A stretch of 64,000 nucleotides of DNA from NCBI RefSeq assembly GCF_902713615.1, contig NC_052164.1, positions 19,394,114 through 19,458,113 on the forward strand. Direction: 5' to 3'. Below are positions 30,478 through 43,123 of this stretch, piece after piece. The stretch is from Scyliorhinus canicula. Lineage: Eukaryota. Each line of letters begins with the position of its first letter. The stretch's first letter is position 1. The position numbers and the translations under genes are program-made. The notes beneath the pieces are model-generated. The model did no database searches. It was not told where the DNA came from and saw only the letters and a list, made by a program, of their open reading frames with translations.

Positions 30478-30787
30478 TGTGGTGGGAAAAGGAAAACTCA
30501 GAAACAATCAGTCATGAATAAGAGCAACAGGAGAGAGAGGAAAGCGCGCCGAGGGCAGCAAGCTACAGTCTTTATTCATTCAAAAGATACAAGTAAATCT
30601 CCATTCCATATAAGGAGTTGTTTTTCTCCTAACTTTACTTTCTCGACCTTCAGACAGCTGGGATATCAGTTTTTCTCTCTCTCTCTCTCTCTAACCTTGC
30701 ACACACACGCACACAAAGGCCTGAAGCTTTAGGTAATCACACTATTAAGCAGTTATTCGATATTAAGTATTAAAATTGTCCATTGCT
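30478..30787 (-). repeat. ERV 3' LTR (lacks a 46-bp segment present in the 5' LTR)
   Basis: Direct repeat of 36395-36756, adjacent to the polypurine tract. Confidence 0.92.
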
Positions 30788-31046: not shown

Positions 31047-31415
31047 CTACTGGTTTGCCTCCTCTAAGTCAACTTGTTCCCTTGCTGCTGTTGGGTCAGA
31101 TAGTTTCAACATCCGGTAACTGCGGGACAGGTTTGCTATAGCTGCTTTCTGTAGGCATTGGCAGATGCATGGTCCAGTTTTGGGAAGTCCTTTCGCTGTG
31201 CTCGCCACCACCAGGTTCCAGTTGTATGGGCCACAGGGGTCTCGGCATAAGTACTTATCATCTCGCAAGTATTTAGAGTCATAGGGCCATGGGTCACACG
31301 TAAATGTGCCTGTCTCTCCTCTGGTTAATGTCACTGTAACCTCTCCAGCCCAATACGCTTTTCCCATTATCAGTTCCGGCATAAGCATCATGATAAGCGA
31401 CATTACCCCTTTCAT
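31047..31415 (-). CDS. env: Internally deleted env: signal-peptide-like leader, N-terminal half of an Ig V-set (CD300/pIgR-like) domain, env cytoplasmic-tail-like end; 122-aa open frame
   Basis: Lies between integrase and the PPT. MKGVMSLIMMLMPELIMG leader; GETGTFTC.PWPYDSKY....KYLCRDPC; ends GPCICQCLQK..., resembling the post-TM GPCI motif of gamma-type Env. Confidence 0.65.
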   Translation of the reverse strand: MKGVMSLIMMLMPELIMGKAYWAGEVTVTLTRGETGTFTCDPWPYDSKYLRDDKYLCRDPCGPYNWNLVVASTAKGLPKTGPCICQCLQKAAIANLSRSYRMLKLSDPTAAREQVDLEEANQ

Positions 31416-31453: not shown

Positions 31454-32480
31454 CTAACAATGACTAGCGTGAATCCACGTTGCTCTTTCTGCTACCTTTA
31501 TCGCTGTCTGCATCACAAGAAGCACCTGGAATGGTCCCAGCCACCGTCTAGCTCTCCAGCTCTTCCTCCTGAGGTCTTTCACCACTACCCAGTCGCCTGG
31601 CTGCAGGTCGTGCAACTTCCCCTCAGCCGGTCGTGGCAGGGCTTCCTTCACTTGAGCTTGCACCTGGGATAAAATTGCAGAGAGTTTTGTACAGTAACGT
31701 AACATTTCATCCTCACAATGGCTAGTCAGGGTCCTCGCGACGGGTTTTGGCCCAATTCCAGTGTTGGGTGGTCTGCCGAATAATATTTCAAATGGACTTA
31801 AATTGGCTCTACCTCTGACCCTAGTCCTCATGTACATTAGTACTACGGGCAGGGCTTTCGTCCACGGTATTCCCATTTCATCGCAACACTTTGCTAGCTT
31901 ATTTTTCAGAGTGGCATTTTCCCTTTCTACCGCTCCTCCACTCGCTTGATGGTATGCACAGTGTTGCCTTAGATCAATACCTAGGTATTCTCCTACCTGT
32001 TTCAGAGCCTGGTTTACAAATGGCGTGCCATTATCACTGCTGATTTTCTCTGGGATGCCCCATCGTGGAATGATTTCAGTTAACAGGGCCTTGGTTACTG
32101 CACTAGCATCTTGTTTGGCTGTAGGGAACACCTCTACCCACTTAGAGAACATGTCAACCATTACTAGGCAGTATTTCTTCCCTTCACTTGGGGTTAGCTC
32201 AATAAAGTCCATTTGAATATGCTCGAAGGGTCTCAGAGGTTCTGGGTGCGCCCCTGGGCTTATCTTAATTCCTCTCCCCACATTATTGGTAGCACAAATA
32301 ACACATCGCTCACAAAATTTCTGGGAGTAACTAGTAAAGCCTCTGGTGTACCAATGTGCAGCGATACTCTTGAACATCCCTCCTTTTGACACATGGTCCT
32401 TGCCGTGTGTCAACTTAGCATAATGAGGAAATAGCGCTCTCGGTAGACATGGCTTATCATTGGGGCCGTACCATCCCCCT
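31454..32480 (-). pseudogene. pol: ERV integrase (frameshifted at a T-run near 32481; premature stop at 31454)
   Basis: HHCC remnant (THG..H...C..C), QMDFIEL, VDMFSKWVE, ISSDNGTPF, SGGAVERENATLK (DDE), LQPGDWV, GPFQVLL, WIHASH. Confidence 0.93.
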
Positions 32481-33185
32481 TTTTTTTACCTTACCCCCTG
32501 CCTTTGACCATTCTTTCTTTTCTTCCCGTGAGGCTTGTGTTTGCAGGTCTTGTATGTCCGCTGTTGGGATAGGAACTGTTAGCATTGGCATGTTTACATT
32601 ATCACTGATAGGTTTTCGTGCTGCTGCTTTCGCTGCCGCATCCGCCCTTGCATTTCCCTGTGAGACTGGATCGGTTTTCCCTGTATGTGCGTCACACTTA
32701 CAGACTGCAATACACTCAGGTAAGAGGACTGCGTCCAAGAGATCAGAAATCAGCCCATGGTGCGTGATTGGTTTGCCTGTTGATGTTAAGAATCCCCTAT
32801 GTTTCCACAAGGTTCCGAAATCATGAGTCACCCCAAAGGCATACTGTCTGTGTAGATAGTAACGGACTTGCCTTCTGCAAGTTTACATGCTTCTGTAAGG
32901 GCTATCAATTCCGCAGCTTGTGCGGAGAGGTGTCTAGGAAGTGGCTCTGCTTTTAGTATGTTGTGTGATGTGACTATGGCATACCCCACACAGTTCTGGC
33001 CCGCTTCTCGATCTCTGAACGCAGACCCATCCACAAACAGTTCCATGTCGGGGTTTTGTAGGGGGGTATCCTGCAAGTCAGGTCGCGGACTACAAACTTC
33101 ATTAGTTAGAGCAACACAATCATGTGGTTCCCCATCACCTGCGGTGGGATGAAGAGTGGCGGGGTTAAGTATGGTACACCTTTTC
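32457..33185 (-). pseudogene. pol: ERV tether/RNase H (frameshifted at ~32830)
   Basis: LNPATL.P...PHDC, LFVDGS, SAQAAELIAL, IYTDS, RGFLTS.GKPI, HT....SQGNARADAAAK. Confidence 0.93.
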
Positions 33186-33820
33186 AACCACATCATGTTT
33201 TCCCTTTGCCCAAAGTTTCCCCGGAACTGTCTGCAGTCGCGGGTCATCGGCAGTAATTTGTACAAAACTCCAGGTTGTTCCCCTATGGCTCTGGTCTGAG
33301 GCGGGGACTATCTCCACCACTCTCTCTGCCCGAGATAGCCAGTTAAGATTCTTTTTATAAGCTCGCATACTCGTACTGAACCACACAGTTGTGTCTGAAA
33401 GCAGTGTCCAATCATTGACTTTGAGATTTTTAAGGACCCACGGTCCCAAATCTTTCCATTGTCTATTGCGCCCTTTCGCTAATGATACATGGGGGTGTGA
33501 CCCTTCTATTGTAAAGGGGTGTGGTACTCCTGATCTCAGACGTATTCTAGACAGGTCTAGAACCTATGCTCATCCCAATATAACTCCCATATCAGCAGCA
33601 CCTCAGACTTTTGCAACTTCCCGAGCCATTCATTCTCGTATTGATTATCTGGTCCCCCCAAGTGAATGTGTGCGGTGCAGTGCAGATTCTCCTTGGACAT
33701 AAAGTCAGTGTTAATAGGGTTAACGCGTTTGCGTGCTTCTCCCATGAGTGCTTGGTTTACTGAACTCACTGCCGCTGGAGTCAATCTCCATTCATAAATA
33801 TACATCAGGGGTCTGGCGTC
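33186..33820 (-). pseudogene. Putative 2H-phosphoesterase domain followed by the first residues of RT (RT core deleted)
   Basis: LHCTA (His at 33680-33682) and PHVSL (His at 33489-33491) motifs, one frameshift between them at ~33545-33562; then DPRLQTVPGKLWAKGKHDV, the typical RT N-terminus, cut off at ~33186. Confidence 0.65.
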
Positions 33821-33987
33821 AAATTTAACTCCTTGGATTCGTGCATCACACTCTCTATAGTCTGTGTAAAGATTTCAAGAACGTTAGTACAAGAGGTTAG
33901 CTTAAGCGGTTCTTCATTGCAAAGTATCAAGGTTTTGGACTCACCCTCTCCTTCAGGCATACCTCCATCGTCCTCTCCTCCCCTTTG

Positions 33988-35966
33988 TCAATTACCATTG
34001 TCATCATTGTCTCTTGGCCCTTCTTGTCTCTTTGTTGGGCAGTCTCTTGCCCAGTGATCCTTGCTTCCGCACGTGAAACACCCATCCGTCTTACCGCGTC
34101 CTCGACCTCCCCTGCCTCTTCCTCTTGTCTGTCCTCTACCTCTTCCTCGTTGCTGACCTTCTGCAACCTGTGTCACCATCTGCATCATAGTTAGCTGTGC
34201 TTGGTGACTCTGATCCTCCCTCCTTTTGTTCCGCTTCACCTTTTCTTGTGTCAGTAGCTTTTCAGCGTGCATGGCGTGTTGTTCGATTAAGTTGAGTTTC
34301 CCTGTGTCCCATGTAATACATGTATTTTTCACCTTCTTAGCGATGTCCTCACTTAATCCATTCATAAAACTGTTCCGCAGATGTGCCTCATACGGAGTCA
34401 CTTCAGCTGTATTTATGTCAGCTGGTGGTGTAAGTCCACTATGAGCGTTATGGACTTCTGTGAGCCGGGTCAGGTACTGGGACACAGTTTCACCGTCACG
34501 CTGCTTACACGTGGCAATTTTTGTCATGTCCATTCTTACCGGAAAGGCAGTTTGACAGGCGTCCACCAGACCTGTAACAAAGGCGTTATAAGGCACATTA
34601 TCTGCATGGTCTGGTTGAACTTGGCAAGCTCGTACATTATCACCTGGCCAATTGTATCGGATCTTGGGGATGTCTGCGCCCAATTTCCTCCCCAATAATC
34701 GCCGCATCTCATGAGACGTGGGGCGAAACTCGAGGCAGAACCTGCGTACCTCGCCTGCAAATTTCTGGCCTCCCGCTTCTCTGGGATCTGGGAGTTGTTC
34801 ATAGGCACATTCAATGTCTTTCATTGTCCACGGTCTGTGGACAAGTATCGGTTGTCCTTCCGGGCCCGCCACTTCTATCATTGGAGCATTGAGGACATTG
34901 CCGAGGAATTTACTGTCTCCTTCCCTTTCTTCGTCGCCTTTGTGATAATTAAACGGTTCTGGTGCATCTGGAAGGGCAGATTTAGGTCTGCACGACGCCT
35001 TACTCCGGGTATGGTGAGCTACTCGGGAGTCAGATGTAGTCATGGTACTGATGTCTGGGTAAAGGGGGTGACGGTCAGCTCCTGACGGTAGAGTTCCCAT
35101 GGACGTCTCAGGCATTCCCCGAGGGGGTTCACTATATGGTGGAGGGCTCGGTCGCGACTCTTGGCCTGGGTTCATGGGGGCCACTTGTGGAGGAGCCGTT
35201 GGCCTGGGAGGCAGCCATCCAGGTCGGGATCATCCGGAATGGGGTGACCTGAAATAGACTTAACACACTGAAGAGATTTGGTTTTATTTGCAGTTTCTTT
35301 GGGTTTCGCCTGTGATCGTCTATTTCTTATTTCTGCCTCTGTTTTCCACATACCGTAAGCCGCCCAATTTATTGTTTCTTTTTTCCTTTTGCTTTTCTTT
35401 CCACTTTCTTTTGCCCTCTGTTCTAACTGGGTTTTTAATAATTCCAATTGTCTTAAACTAAAACTTCCTCCTTCAGGAAAACCACACTCCTTCACCCACA
35501 TTTTAACTTGACTCACCGAGTCTTGTCCATAATTAGTAACCATGTATCGTATATTAGGGCTATTTAAACTTGCAGCATTTAGAACATAGAACATAGAACA
35601 GTACAGCACAGAACAGGCCCTTCGGCCCTCAATGTTGTGCCGAGCCATGATCACCCCACTCAAACCCACGTATACACCCTATACCCGTAACCCAACAACC
35701 CCCCCCCTTAACCTTACTTTTATTAGGACACTACGGGCAATTTAGCATGGCCAATCCACCTAACCCTCACATCTTTAGACTGTGGGAGGAAACCGGAGCA
35801 CCCGGAGGAAACCCACGCACACAGGGGGAGGACGTGCAGACTCCACACAGACAGTGACCCAGCTGGGAATCGAACCTGGGACCCTGGAGCTGTGAAGCAT
35901 TTATGCTAACCACCATGCTACCCTGCTGCCCCAATTTGTTTGTTTTTTCCCATTGCTATTACCCAT
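33988..35966 (-). pseudogene. gag: ERV gag (SINE insertion at 35581-35931; frameshift at ~35180)
   Basis: ATG at 35966 gives MGNSNGKK (myristoylation-type start); PPPY and LYPDI late-domain-like motifs; major homology region CKQRDGETVSQYLTRL; RG repeats; a single CCHC knuckle CFTCGSKDHWARDC; TGA at 33988-33990. Confidence 0.92.
35581..35931 (-). mobile_element. Young V-SINE subfamily inserted into ERV gag
   Basis: Near-identical reverse complement of 41658-41998; tail GAGGGCCGAAGGGCCTGTTCTGTGCTGTACTGTTCTATGTTCTATGTTCT. Confidence 0.9.
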
Positions 35967-36394: not shown

Positions 36395-36756
36395 TGTGGT
36401 GGGAAAAGGAAAACTCAGAAACAATCAGTCATGAACAAGAACAAGTTTAGTTTATTTCTTAGCTCTGCAGAGGACACCCTCCTCTCTCTACAGGCGAGAG
36501 AGGAAAGCGCGCCGAGCGCAGCAAGCTACAGTCTTTATTCATTCAAAAGATACAAGTAAATCTCCATTCCATATAAGGAGTTGTTTTTCTCCTAACTTTA
36601 CTTTCTCGACCTTCAGACAGCTGGGATATCAGTTTTTCTCTCTCCCTCTCTAACCTTGCACACACACACACACACACACACACAAAGGCCTGAAGCTTTA
36701 GGTAATCACACTATTAAGCAGTTATTCAATATTAAGTATTAAAATTGTCCATTACA
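36395..36756 (-). repeat. ERV 5' LTR (362 bp)
   Basis: TGTAATGG...CCCACCACA on the minus strand; internal (TG)n and GA-rich tracts; two AATAAA hexamers; GT-rich U5-like end. Confidence 0.94.
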
Positions 36757-42808: not shown

Positions 42809-43123
42809 NNNNNNNNNNNNNNNNNNNNNNNNNNNNNNNNNNNNNNNNNNNNNNNNNNNNNNNNNNNNNNNNNNNNNNNNNNNNNNNNNNNNNNNNNNNN
42901 NNNNNNNNNNNNNNNNNNNNNNNNNNNNNNNNNNNNNNNNNNNNNNNNNNNNNNNNNNNNNNNNNNNNNNNNNNNNNNNNNNNNNNNNNNNNNNNNNNNN
43001 NNNNNNNNNNNNNNNNNNNNNNNNNNNNNNNNNNNNNNNNNNNNNNNNNNNNNNNNNNNNNNNNNNNNNNNNNNNNNNNNNNNNNNNNNNNNNNNNNNNN
43101 NNNNNNNNNNNNNNNNNNNNNNN
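42809..43123. other. Assembly gap (315 N)
   Basis: Run of N. Confidence 1.

What the first reader, a model, noticed from the sequence alone, without database searches (positions are those of the whole stretch)
33400..33820. Putative 2H-phosphoesterase domain inside the retroviral Gag-Pol region
Seen (minus strand): ...YIYEWRL...KENLHCTAHIH...YENEW...LYWDEHR / frameshift at the palindrome TTCTAGAC-CT-GTCTAGAA (~33545-33562) / ...PFTIEGSHPHVSLAKG..RQWKDLGPWV... This gives two hydrophobic-H-x-(T/S)-hydrophobic-type motifs ~64 codons apart, directly before the RT start. The second motif is missing from the ORF track. Established: paired HxT/S motifs define the 2H superfamily (CNPase, LigT, AKAP7, coronavirus NS2, rotavirus VP3-CTD, phage Acb1); the viral members cleave 2-5A or cyclic oligonucleotides. 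I recall 2H modules being noted in some fish retroviral polyproteins, so the domain class may not be new, though I know of no established function there. Inference: an antagonist of OAS-RNase L or cGAS-STING signalling, or an RNA/tRNA-primer end-processing enzyme.
Basis: partly seen in the sequence, partly recalled or inferred. Interest (0 to 1): 0.8.

Follow-up and report, generated by a model that had tools for sequence, protein, structure and literature searches.

The report
Two-histidine enzyme inside shark retroviral Pol
A broken retrovirus copy in a shark genome carries, at the place between the protease and reverse-transcriptase genes, a conserved domain predicted to fold like the host enzyme CNPase; such domains were already noted in fish retroviruses, and this one likely opens cyclic-phosphate RNA ends, although its activity is untested.

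Summary
Both motifs (H-C-T, H-V-S) are present, 191 nt apart and out of frame. The break is private to this copy: all 29 sibling copies examined have 10 more bases there, 23 keep the histidines in frame, and the 8-bp palindrome occurs only here, so it is a lesion, not a frameshift signal. This copy also lacks protease and nearly all of RT. In relatives the domain sits between protease and RT; both histidines are kept in 32 of 34 aligned Pol proteins. A natural sibling domain folds confidently (pLDDT 92.7) and matches 2H phosphoesterases, CNPase far best (Z 14.8; next 9.7), and walleye retrovirus polyproteins. A 2H domain in fish retroviruses is already in print, and this scan found it before in other genomes. 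I found no functional test. Most likely it opens 2',3'-cyclic phosphates on RNA ends (0.5). 2-5A cleavage is unlikely (0.08): ray-finned fish lost OAS-RNase L, yet their retroviruses keep the site. CNPase's substrate-binding residues are not kept, so another substrate such as cGAMP stays open (0.2). New member of a known kind; interest 0.4.

The parts
33288..33826 (-). CNPase-like 2H phosphoesterase domain of Pol (183-codon span in siblings), broken by a frameshift in this copy
   Evidence: One search places residues 1-94 at 33826-33545 and 90-183 at 33569-33288; fold of a natural sibling domain
33671..33682 (-). First 2H motif, H-C-T-A
   Evidence: His in 29 of 30 copies, Thr in 30 of 30; His 32 of 34, Thr 29 of 34 Pol proteins
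33480..33491 (-). Second 2H motif, H-V-S-L
   Evidence: His in 28 of 30 copies, Ser in 29 of 30; His 33 of 34, Ser 29 of 34 Pol proteins
33545..33562 (.). Copy-specific break: 10 bases shorter than siblings, with an 8-bp-arm palindrome found only in this copy
   Evidence: 10-base gap against 29 of 29 siblings; full palindrome in 1 of 30, 5-bp arm in 23 of 25 measured
33833..33837 (-). Junction of an approximately 385-bp deletion that removed the protease; it also puts the 2H domain out of frame with the sequence after the gag stop
   Evidence: 16 of 40 scored copies share it; siblings without it encode a Pfam RVP protease
33186..33215 (-). First codons of reverse transcriptase and junction of an approximately 1.3-kb RT deletion
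   Evidence: RVT_1 follows at this place in siblings
33988..35966 (-). gag, with a repeat insertion near its start and a one-base frameshift near 35201; ends in TGA (pol readthrough inferred)
   Evidence: zf-CCHC E 1.6e-6; the start codon is read from the sequence, not tested
32828..33186 (-). End of RT connection and RNase H (frameshifted further on)
   Evidence: Pfam RNase_H E 1.8e-10
31454..32485 (-). Integrase
   Evidence: Pfam rve E 7.6e-19, MLVIN_C E 2.1e-11
31050..31415 (-). Truncated reading frame at the env position
   Evidence: no Pfam hit alone; a sibling's longer frame has an Ig V-set hit
36395..36756 (-). 5' LTR
   Evidence: 301 matches, 8 mismatches against the 3' LTR
30478..30784 (-). 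3' LTR

Best explanation
This stretch is the broken copy of a domain that sits between protease and reverse transcriptase in the Pol protein of a shark endogenous retrovirus and its fish relatives; it is predicted to fold as a CNPase-like two-histidine phosphoesterase and likely hydrolyses 2',3'-cyclic phosphates on RNA ends. Shown: position in Pol, conservation of both His-x-Thr/Ser motifs, and that this copy is frameshifted and lacks protease and most of RT. Predicted: the 2H fold with CNPase's helix after motif 2. Inferred: an ancestral fish retrovirus took the catalytic domain from a host CNP-type gene; the domain is made as part of Gag-Pol by readthrough of the gag stop and is carried in the particle beside RT; one histidine activates water and the other protonates the leaving group, opening the cyclic phosphate to a 2'-phosphate with a free 3'-OH. 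That would unblock nuclease-cut ends of primer tRNA or genomic RNA, or remove cyclic-phosphate RNA that cells sense.
For: Fold of a natural sibling domain with a 34-row alignment: pLDDT 92.7, pTM 0.88. Foldseek PDB: 47 matches at E <= 0.001, every listed one a CNPase or goldfish RICH, best E 5.2e-5. VIA-align over 48,161 chains: CNPase Z 14.8, rmsd 3.4 A over 165 residues; next 2H protein Z 9.7; ranks 1-21 are 2H-type folds by their titles or by recall. Profile-profile against 58 vertebrate CNPases: probability 63.8%, E 6.6e-5, score 36.1 against a maximum of 20.9 in 60 column shuffles, both motifs in register. Motif 1 is H-C-T in 58 of 58 CNPases and H 32, C 32, T 29 of 34 viral rows; the glycine 15 residues after His2 is invariant in both sets, and the model has a helix at 127-139 there. 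That helix is described as unique to CNPase among 2H enzymes and tied to 2',3'-cyclic substrate choice (PMC4643303 passages). Both His in 32 of 34 rows against a median column conservation of 11 of 34. The profile finds the domain in 48 of 67 Pol homologues, 15 of them not used to build it.
Against: No activity was measured. CNPase's ligand-binding residues are not kept by register: Phe235 (aromatic in 58 of 58 CNPases; Val 24, Ile 4 of 34 viral rows), Arg307 (57 of 58; variable and mostly uncharged), Val321 (51 of 58; Arg, Lys, Gln, Glu) and Tyr168 (aromatic in 58 of 58; Val, Ala, Ile in 28 of 34; weaker register, numbering recalled). His-His spacing is mostly 59-61 (67 here) against 84 in the host CNPase. 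Pfam CNPase gives no hit at E <= 10. Structural identity to CNPase is only 12-19% and Foldseek rmsd is 4.7-9.4 A. The insert diverges faster than its neighbours: median identity 33% against 44% for protease and 68% for RT, n = 36. No step of retroviral replication is known (my knowledge) to need this activity, and four homologues with a protease motif lack the insert. Host origin rests on similarity, not on a rooted tree.
Confidence: 0.5

Rival explanations
1. The domain is a CNPase-derived enzyme with a rebuilt pocket that degrades 2'3'-cGAMP or a related cyclic oligonucleotide, damping cGAS-STING sensing of reverse-transcribed DNA.
For: 2H enzymes of other viruses do this and appear in the fold search: Acb1 7t27 Z 7.6, penguinpox cGAMP PDE 9bkq Z 5.0. 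CNPase pocket residues are replaced while family-specific Trp127, Lys121, Pro115 and Trp143 are kept in 30-33 of 34 rows. Retroviral DNA is a cGAS trigger and fish have the pathway (recalled, not tested here).
Against: The fold is much closer to CNPase (Z 14.8) and keeps the helix said to limit substrate size. Tested 2H 2',5'-PDEs did not cleave cGAMP (PMC8406329 passages), so the fold does not imply it. Pol is a minor product of a retrovirus (recalled).
Confidence: 0.2
2. The domain mainly binds RNA or a host protein, for example holding the primer tRNA for RT or acting as a decoy for the host's antiviral CNP, and catalysis is secondary.
For: Host CNPase blocks lentivirus assembly by binding Gag (PMC5434554 passage citing Wilson 2012; that paper was not held). 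The pocket has diverged and 8 of 34 rows lack a complete pair of H-x-T/S motifs.
Against: Both histidines are among the six best-kept columns, which is what catalysis predicts. Viral and host domains are under 20% identical, poor for a decoy.
Confidence: 0.15
3. The domain degrades 2-5A and so blocks OAS-RNase L, like coronavirus NS2 and rotavirus VP3.
For: The host genome has OAS1_C-domain genes (8 exon matches on two contigs, best E 2.6e-27), and cartilaginous fish have a working pathway (PMC10400998 passages). NS2 (Z 7.1), AKAP7/18 (Z 6.8) and VP3 (Z 5.8-6.0) share the fold.
Against: OASa and RNase L were lost in the common ancestor of ray-finned fish, yet 21 of the 23 aligned Pol proteins named from ray-finned fish keep both histidines, and the shark family's nearest named RT relative is from a catfish (quick tree). 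The viral 2-5A enzymes descend from AKAP7 (PMC10835031, start of abstract), and score far below CNPase.
Confidence: 0.08
4. The domain opens ADP-ribose 1'',2''-cyclic phosphate or a related ADP-ribose signal.
For: 2H domains are known or predicted to do this (PMC9503650 passages); fish epsilon-like ERVs also carry macro domains (PMC4977317 passage); plant CPDase 1fsi matches at Z 7.8.
Against: CNPase-type enzymes are contrasted with those that take this substrate (PMC4643303 passage); Pfam shows no macro domain in the Pol proteins scanned.
Confidence: 0.07

Closest known systems
2H domain of fish retroviruses, including walleye dermal sarcoma virus (Mazumder et al. 2002, not held; cited in PMC9503650 section 3.4.5)
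   Same: Same domain class in a fish retrovirus. The model's three best matches among viral structures are long polyproteins: Q2VF30 (unnamed in the tool; E 5.7e-9), Q9WHI8 of walleye epidermal hyperplasia virus 1 (E 2.8e-7) and A4GTG3 of walleye dermal sarcoma virus (E 6.4e-6).
   Different: Here the host is a cartilaginous fish and the copy is broken. Identity to those polyproteins is 12-16%. The tool names two of them 'Envelope polyprotein' and does not give the matched position, so the protease-RT location in them is inferred.
CNPase-encoding epsilon-like ERVs of ray-finned fish (Basta et al. 2009, not held; summarised in PMC4977317)
   Same: A CNPase-like sequence in a fish epsilon-like ERV.
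   Different: The review speaks of occasional 'additional open reading frames'; here the domain is an in-frame part of Pol in 48 of 67 homologues. Whether both are the same element could not be checked.
Vertebrate CNPase catalytic domain (mouse 2xmi, human 1woj, goldfish RICH 2i3e; Pfam PF05881)
   Same: Best structural match (Z 14.8); H-C-T first motif; helix and invariant glycine after motif 2.
   Different: No N-terminal kinase-like domain; about 20 residues shorter between the histidines; Phe235, Arg307, Val321 and probably Tyr168 not kept; no Pfam hit.
Viral 2',5'-phosphodiesterases (MHV NS2, rotavirus VP3-CTD) and AKAP7; phage Acb1; poxvirus cGAMP PDE
   Same: 2H fold and paired histidine motifs in a virus.
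   Different: Z 5.0-7.6 and 5-12% identity, well below CNPase; different 2H branch; none is part of a retroviral Pol.

Membership tests
2H phosphoesterase superfamily | Two His-x-Thr/Ser-hydrophobic motifs | tested here: met
   Present in the window (in two frames) and in frame in 23 of 30 copies; both His in 32 of 34 Pol rows, both full motifs in 26 of 34
2H phosphoesterase superfamily | 2H fold | tested here: met
   Model pLDDT 92.7; Foldseek E 5.2e-5 and VIA-align Z 14.8 to CNPase, followed by other 2H proteins. The model is of a natural sibling copy, not of the broken window copy
2H phosphoesterase superfamily | Both histidines face one active-site cleft | tested here: inconclusive
2H phosphoesterase superfamily | Metal-independent phosphodiesterase activity | not testable with these tools
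   Needs an assay
Vertebrate CNPase | Helix alpha-7 after the second motif, with conserved glycine | tested here: met
   Helix 127-139 in the model; Gly at His2+15 in 34 of 34 viral and 58 of 58 CNPase rows; feature defined in PMC4643303
Vertebrate CNPase | Ligand-binding residues Phe235, Arg307, Val321, Tyr168 | tested here: not met
   Not kept at the motif-anchored positions; Tyr168 register is weaker and its numbering is recalled
Vertebrate CNPase | Match to Pfam PF05881 above its cut-off | tested here: not met
   No Pfam family at E <= 10 for the domain, and none for the insert in 8 longer proteins
Vertebrate CNPase | N-terminal polynucleotide-kinase-like domain | tested here: not met
   The domain is flanked by retroviral protease and RT
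Vertebrate CNPase | Hydrolysis of 2',3'-cyclic nucleotides to 2'-nucleotides | not testable with these tools
   Needs an assay
Fish-retrovirus Pol 2H domain | In-frame domain between protease and RT of an epsilon-like Pol | tested here: met
   Pfam RVP at 8-100 and RVT_1 at 407-501 of a natural sibling frame with the domain between; same layout in fish homologues
Fish-retrovirus Pol 2H domain | Homology to the domain of the walleye retroviruses | tested here: met
   Foldseek E 2.8e-7 and 6.4e-6, TM-score 0.64 and 0.62 by query; position in those polyproteins not shown
AKAP7-derived viral 2',5'-phosphodiesterases | Closest kinship to AKAP7, NS2 or VP3-CTD | tested here: not met
   They are listed at Z 5.8-7.1, against 14.8 for CNPase
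AKAP7-derived viral 2',5'-phosphodiesterases | Cleavage of 2-5A | not testable with these tools
   Needs an assay

The most novel reading that the evidence does not exclude
A whole lineage of fish and shark retroviruses carries, as a fixed fifth enzyme of Pol, a host-derived CNPase domain whose pocket has been rebuilt to destroy a cyclic-nucleotide immune messenger such as cGAMP, delivered into the cell together with reverse transcriptase.
Probability: 0.2. Interest if true: 0.8.

Novelty: new member of a known kind. Interest (0 to 1): 0.4.

Why it matters
Retroviral Pol normally holds protease, RT, RNase H and integrase. An extra enzyme kept across divergent fish and shark retroviruses points to a step of replication or a host defence that has not been described for them. 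The domain was noted by sequence in 2002 (as cited in PMC9503650), has no Pfam model, and I found no functional test in six literature searches. The confident model, the CNPase kinship, the changed pocket and the argument from ray-finned fish narrow the question to a few cheap in-vitro assays. The window's own copy is a dead fossil and adds only a further host group.

Tried and rejected
Programmed frameshift at the palindrome: rejected; the full palindrome is in 1 of 30 copies and 23 of 30 keep the histidines 201 nt apart, in frame. Motif pair as evidence by itself: rejected, 10 such pairs arise in the window by chance. Single-sequence fold: failed, pLDDT 31.2. Pfam on the two window halves and on the sibling domain: no hit. 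phmmer of the domain against PDB sequences: one chance hit, E 0.18; the whole-Pol profile returned only RT and RNase H among the best 60 of 522. Homologue search with the domain alone (proteins of 322-2000 aa): none of 413 candidates. Profile against one host CNP exon alone: weak, rank 7 of 2001 against shuffles, HHalign probability 3.8%. Selection among copies: pN/pS 0.63 (0.47-0.89) for the domain and 0.59 for gag, but an off-frame control gave 0.58, so it shows nothing (the gag control was out of frame and was redone). Identity of insert against RT did not correlate (rho -0.05, n = 36), so co-inheritance is not shown that way. The RT tree is the quick version, 59 rows, 9 left out. RNase L in the host: PF06479 gave 3 matches at two loci that look IRE1-type by a recalled motif; RNase L neither shown nor excluded. 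Assembly error at the break: two DNA contig sets did not bridge the place with the window's form; inconclusive. Expression: no RNA holder listed; two raw RNA runs gave 0 and 2 reads; no test. The search of 50% representatives never ran and the Atlas did not hold the sequence, so distant relatives outside fish were not surveyed. Mazumder 2002, Basta 2009 and Wilson 2012 were not held and are cited second-hand.

Full report
1. What is in the sequence. The quoted peptides are all on the minus strand. The histidine codon of H-C-T is at 33682-33680 and that of H-V-S at 33491-33489, 191 nt apart and in different frames; the palindrome is at 33545-33562. The pair alone is not special: a loose pattern finds 123 such motifs and 10 pairs at 55-90 codons in the window's six frames.

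2. The element. The stretch lies in a provirus on the minus strand: LTRs at about 36756-36395 and 30784-30478 (301 matches, 8 mismatches), gag with a zinc knuckle, RNase H and integrase (Pfam E 1.6e-6, 1.8e-10, 7.6e-19). A host CNP exon from the same genome is identical to a catshark record and closest to other sharks and rays, so the host is a cartilaginous fish. A DNA search scored 40 of 66 candidate places, at 92-96% identity, and I fetched 30 loci including the window's own. Against them the window copy lacks about 385 bp holding the protease (shared by 16 of the 40) and about 1.3 kb of RT. In siblings that have these parts, one natural frame runs from protease (Pfam RVP, residues 8-100) through the domain into RT (RVT_1, 407-501).

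3. The frameshift is a private lesion. All 29 siblings have 10 more bases at 33560-33562. His-to-His distance is 201 nt in 23 of 30 copies, 200 or 202 in 6, and 191 only here. The 8-bp-arm palindrome occurs in 1 of 30 copies; 23 of the 25 measured have a 5-bp arm. The palindrome is therefore a product of the lesion, not a recoding signal; a template switch at a short inverted repeat is a plausible cause (inference). An assembly error could not be excluded. Among the 30 copies His1 is kept in 29, Thr in 30, His2 in 28 and Ser in 29, but these copies are about 95% alike, so this says little; pN/pS among them was uninformative because an off-frame control gave a similar value.

4. Conservation across viruses. 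A protease-domain-RT query returned 67 Pol-like proteins (only the 7,989 best candidates of 883-2,520 aa were scored, and the query favours proteins with the insert). I aligned 33 of them, chosen for covering the region, with the sibling domain; 23 are named from ray-finned fish, 10 are unnamed. His1 is kept in 32 of 34 rows, His2 in 33, both in 32, both full motifs in 26; the median column holds its commonest residue in 11 of 34. A profile of the domain hits 48 of the 67, 15 of them not used to build it; of the 19 misses, 15 have no protease motif by my pattern and 4 have a protease but no insert. Those four fall outside the main 53-row group in a quick RT tree (careful tree unfinished, 9 rows left out), which fits one old gain but does not prove it. 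The insert changes faster than protease or RT (median identity 33, 44 and 68%, n = 36) while its motifs stay.

5. Fold. Alone the domain did not fold (pLDDT 31.2); with the alignment it did (pLDDT 92.7, pTM 0.88). Foldseek gave 47 PDB matches at E <= 0.001, all listed ones CNPase or goldfish RICH. VIA-align over 48,161 chains put CNPase first (Z 14.8, rmsd 3.4 A, 165 residues), then bacterial and archaeal 2H enzymes (9.7, 8.9, 8.3), plant CPDase (7.8), Acb1 (7.6), NS2 (7.1), AKAP18 (6.8), VP3 (6.0, 5.8) and poxvirus cGAMP PDE (5.0). Among viral models only three passed E <= 0.001: an unnamed polyprotein and two walleye retrovirus polyproteins. Sequence agrees: against 58 vertebrate CNPases (thinned from 120 listed hits) HHalign gave probability 63.8%, E 6.6e-5 and score 36.1, against at most 20.9 in 60 shuffles.

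6. Like CNPase, but not a CNPase. Shared: H-C-T as motif 1, a helix after motif 2 (127-139 in the model) and an invariant glycine 15 residues after His2. That helix is described as present in vertebrate CNPases and absent from other 2H enzymes, and as possibly setting stereospecificity and substrate size (PMC4643303, passages). Not shared: Phe235, Arg307, Val321 and, on a weaker register with recalled numbering, Tyr168; the N-terminal domain; about 20 residues between the histidines; a Pfam hit. The viral family keeps its own residues near motif 2 (Pro115, Lys121, Trp127), which could replace them (inference). I file it in the 2H superfamily and with the fish-retrovirus Pol domain, and say only that it likely works like CNPase.

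7. How it most likely works. Pol follows a TGA stop in frame with gag, so the domain would be made as part of Gag-Pol and packaged with RT (inferred from general retroviral biology). By the CNPase mechanism it would open a 2',3'-cyclic phosphate to a 2'-phosphate and a 3'-OH. Metal-independent host RNases leave such ends (PMC9503650, passages), and RNA with such ends is sensed by RIG-I, MDA5, NLRP3 and TLR8 (PMC8406329, passages). So the enzyme would unblock damaged primer or genomic RNA ends, or remove a signal: 0.5. Rivals: cGAMP-type messenger 0.2, since the pocket is rebuilt; binding or decoy role 0.15, since host CNPase restricts lentivirus assembly (PMC5434554, passage); 2-5A 0.08; ADP-ribose cyclic phosphate 0.07. 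For 2-5A, the host does have OAS1_C genes and cartilaginous fish have the pathway, but ray-finned fish lost OASa and RNase L in their common ancestor (PMC10400998, passages), and 21 of the 23 rows named from ray-finned fish keep both histidines.

8. What is known. [quoted passage not shown] PMC4977317 says fish epsilon-like ERVs sometimes encode a CNPase, citing Basta 2009 (passages). Neither primary paper was held, so I cannot say how closely they describe this insert, and their supplements were not seen. Term look-ups found no mention of retroviruses in PMC10835031 or PMC8406329, no phosphodiesterase in the zebrafish ERV survey PMC8672886, and nothing on this region in the WDSV review PMC3185748; PMC11410667 was seen in a listing only, with 0 occurrences of 'retrovir'. 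Six searches (listings read) showed no functional test; subscription journals are largely missing from the library. This scan's earlier notes report the same domain in other shark, ray and fish-type genomes (five notes) and none in this genome; I had reached my reading before looking.

9. Verdict. Real, conserved and correctly assigned to the 2H superfamily; CNPase-like rather than NS2- or Acb1-like; dead in this copy; already noted in fish retroviruses; function open and easy to test. New member of a known kind, interest 0.4. The boldest reading still allowed, a Pol-borne destroyer of a cyclic-nucleotide immune messenger, has about 0.2 and would merit 0.8.

Noticed in passing
window 31415-31050 (-); L039:2561-3457 (+): The frame at the env position is cut short here, but in a sibling copy it begins with an immunoglobulin V-set domain (Pfam PF07686, E 3e-11), followed by a furin-like basic site and a cysteine-rich part (read by eye). 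Earlier scan notes report Ig-like Env heads in other cartilaginous-fish genomes. One paper search showed nothing specific in its listing.
   Followed up: partly
window 33833-33837 and 33186-33188: A deletion subfamily: 16 of 40 scored copies share the protease deletion, and several also lack part or most of RT while keeping the 2H stretch, RNase H and integrase. It probably spread with help from complete copies.
   Followed up: partly
P0003 against P0004: The nearest named Pol relative is from a catfish (62% identity over protease-insert-RT; grouped at SH-aLRT 97 in the quick RT tree), which hints at a jump between bony and cartilaginous fish. Not tested with other shark viruses.
   Followed up: partly
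window 36389-36372 (-): A primer-binding-site-like sequence starting with TGG lies 5 bases after the 5' LTR. By recall it fits a serine tRNA, whereas the walleye viruses use histidine tRNA (PMC3185748).
   Followed up: no
window 35585-35937: A repeat of about 350 bp, also found at other places in sibling loci, interrupts the start of gag.
   Followed up: no
G000:C4:109964436-109965026, C2:26792529-26793119 and others: Some sibling copies match the domain in two overlapping pieces (residues 1-111 and 99-183) with extra DNA between, suggesting a shared short duplication or insertion between the motifs.
   Followed up: no
G000:C19:15600072-15604471: The host's own CNP gene lies on the same contig, about 3.8 Mb from the window; no link to the provirus is implied.
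   Followed up: partly
window 42809-43123: One run of 315 N, far from the finding.
   Followed up: no
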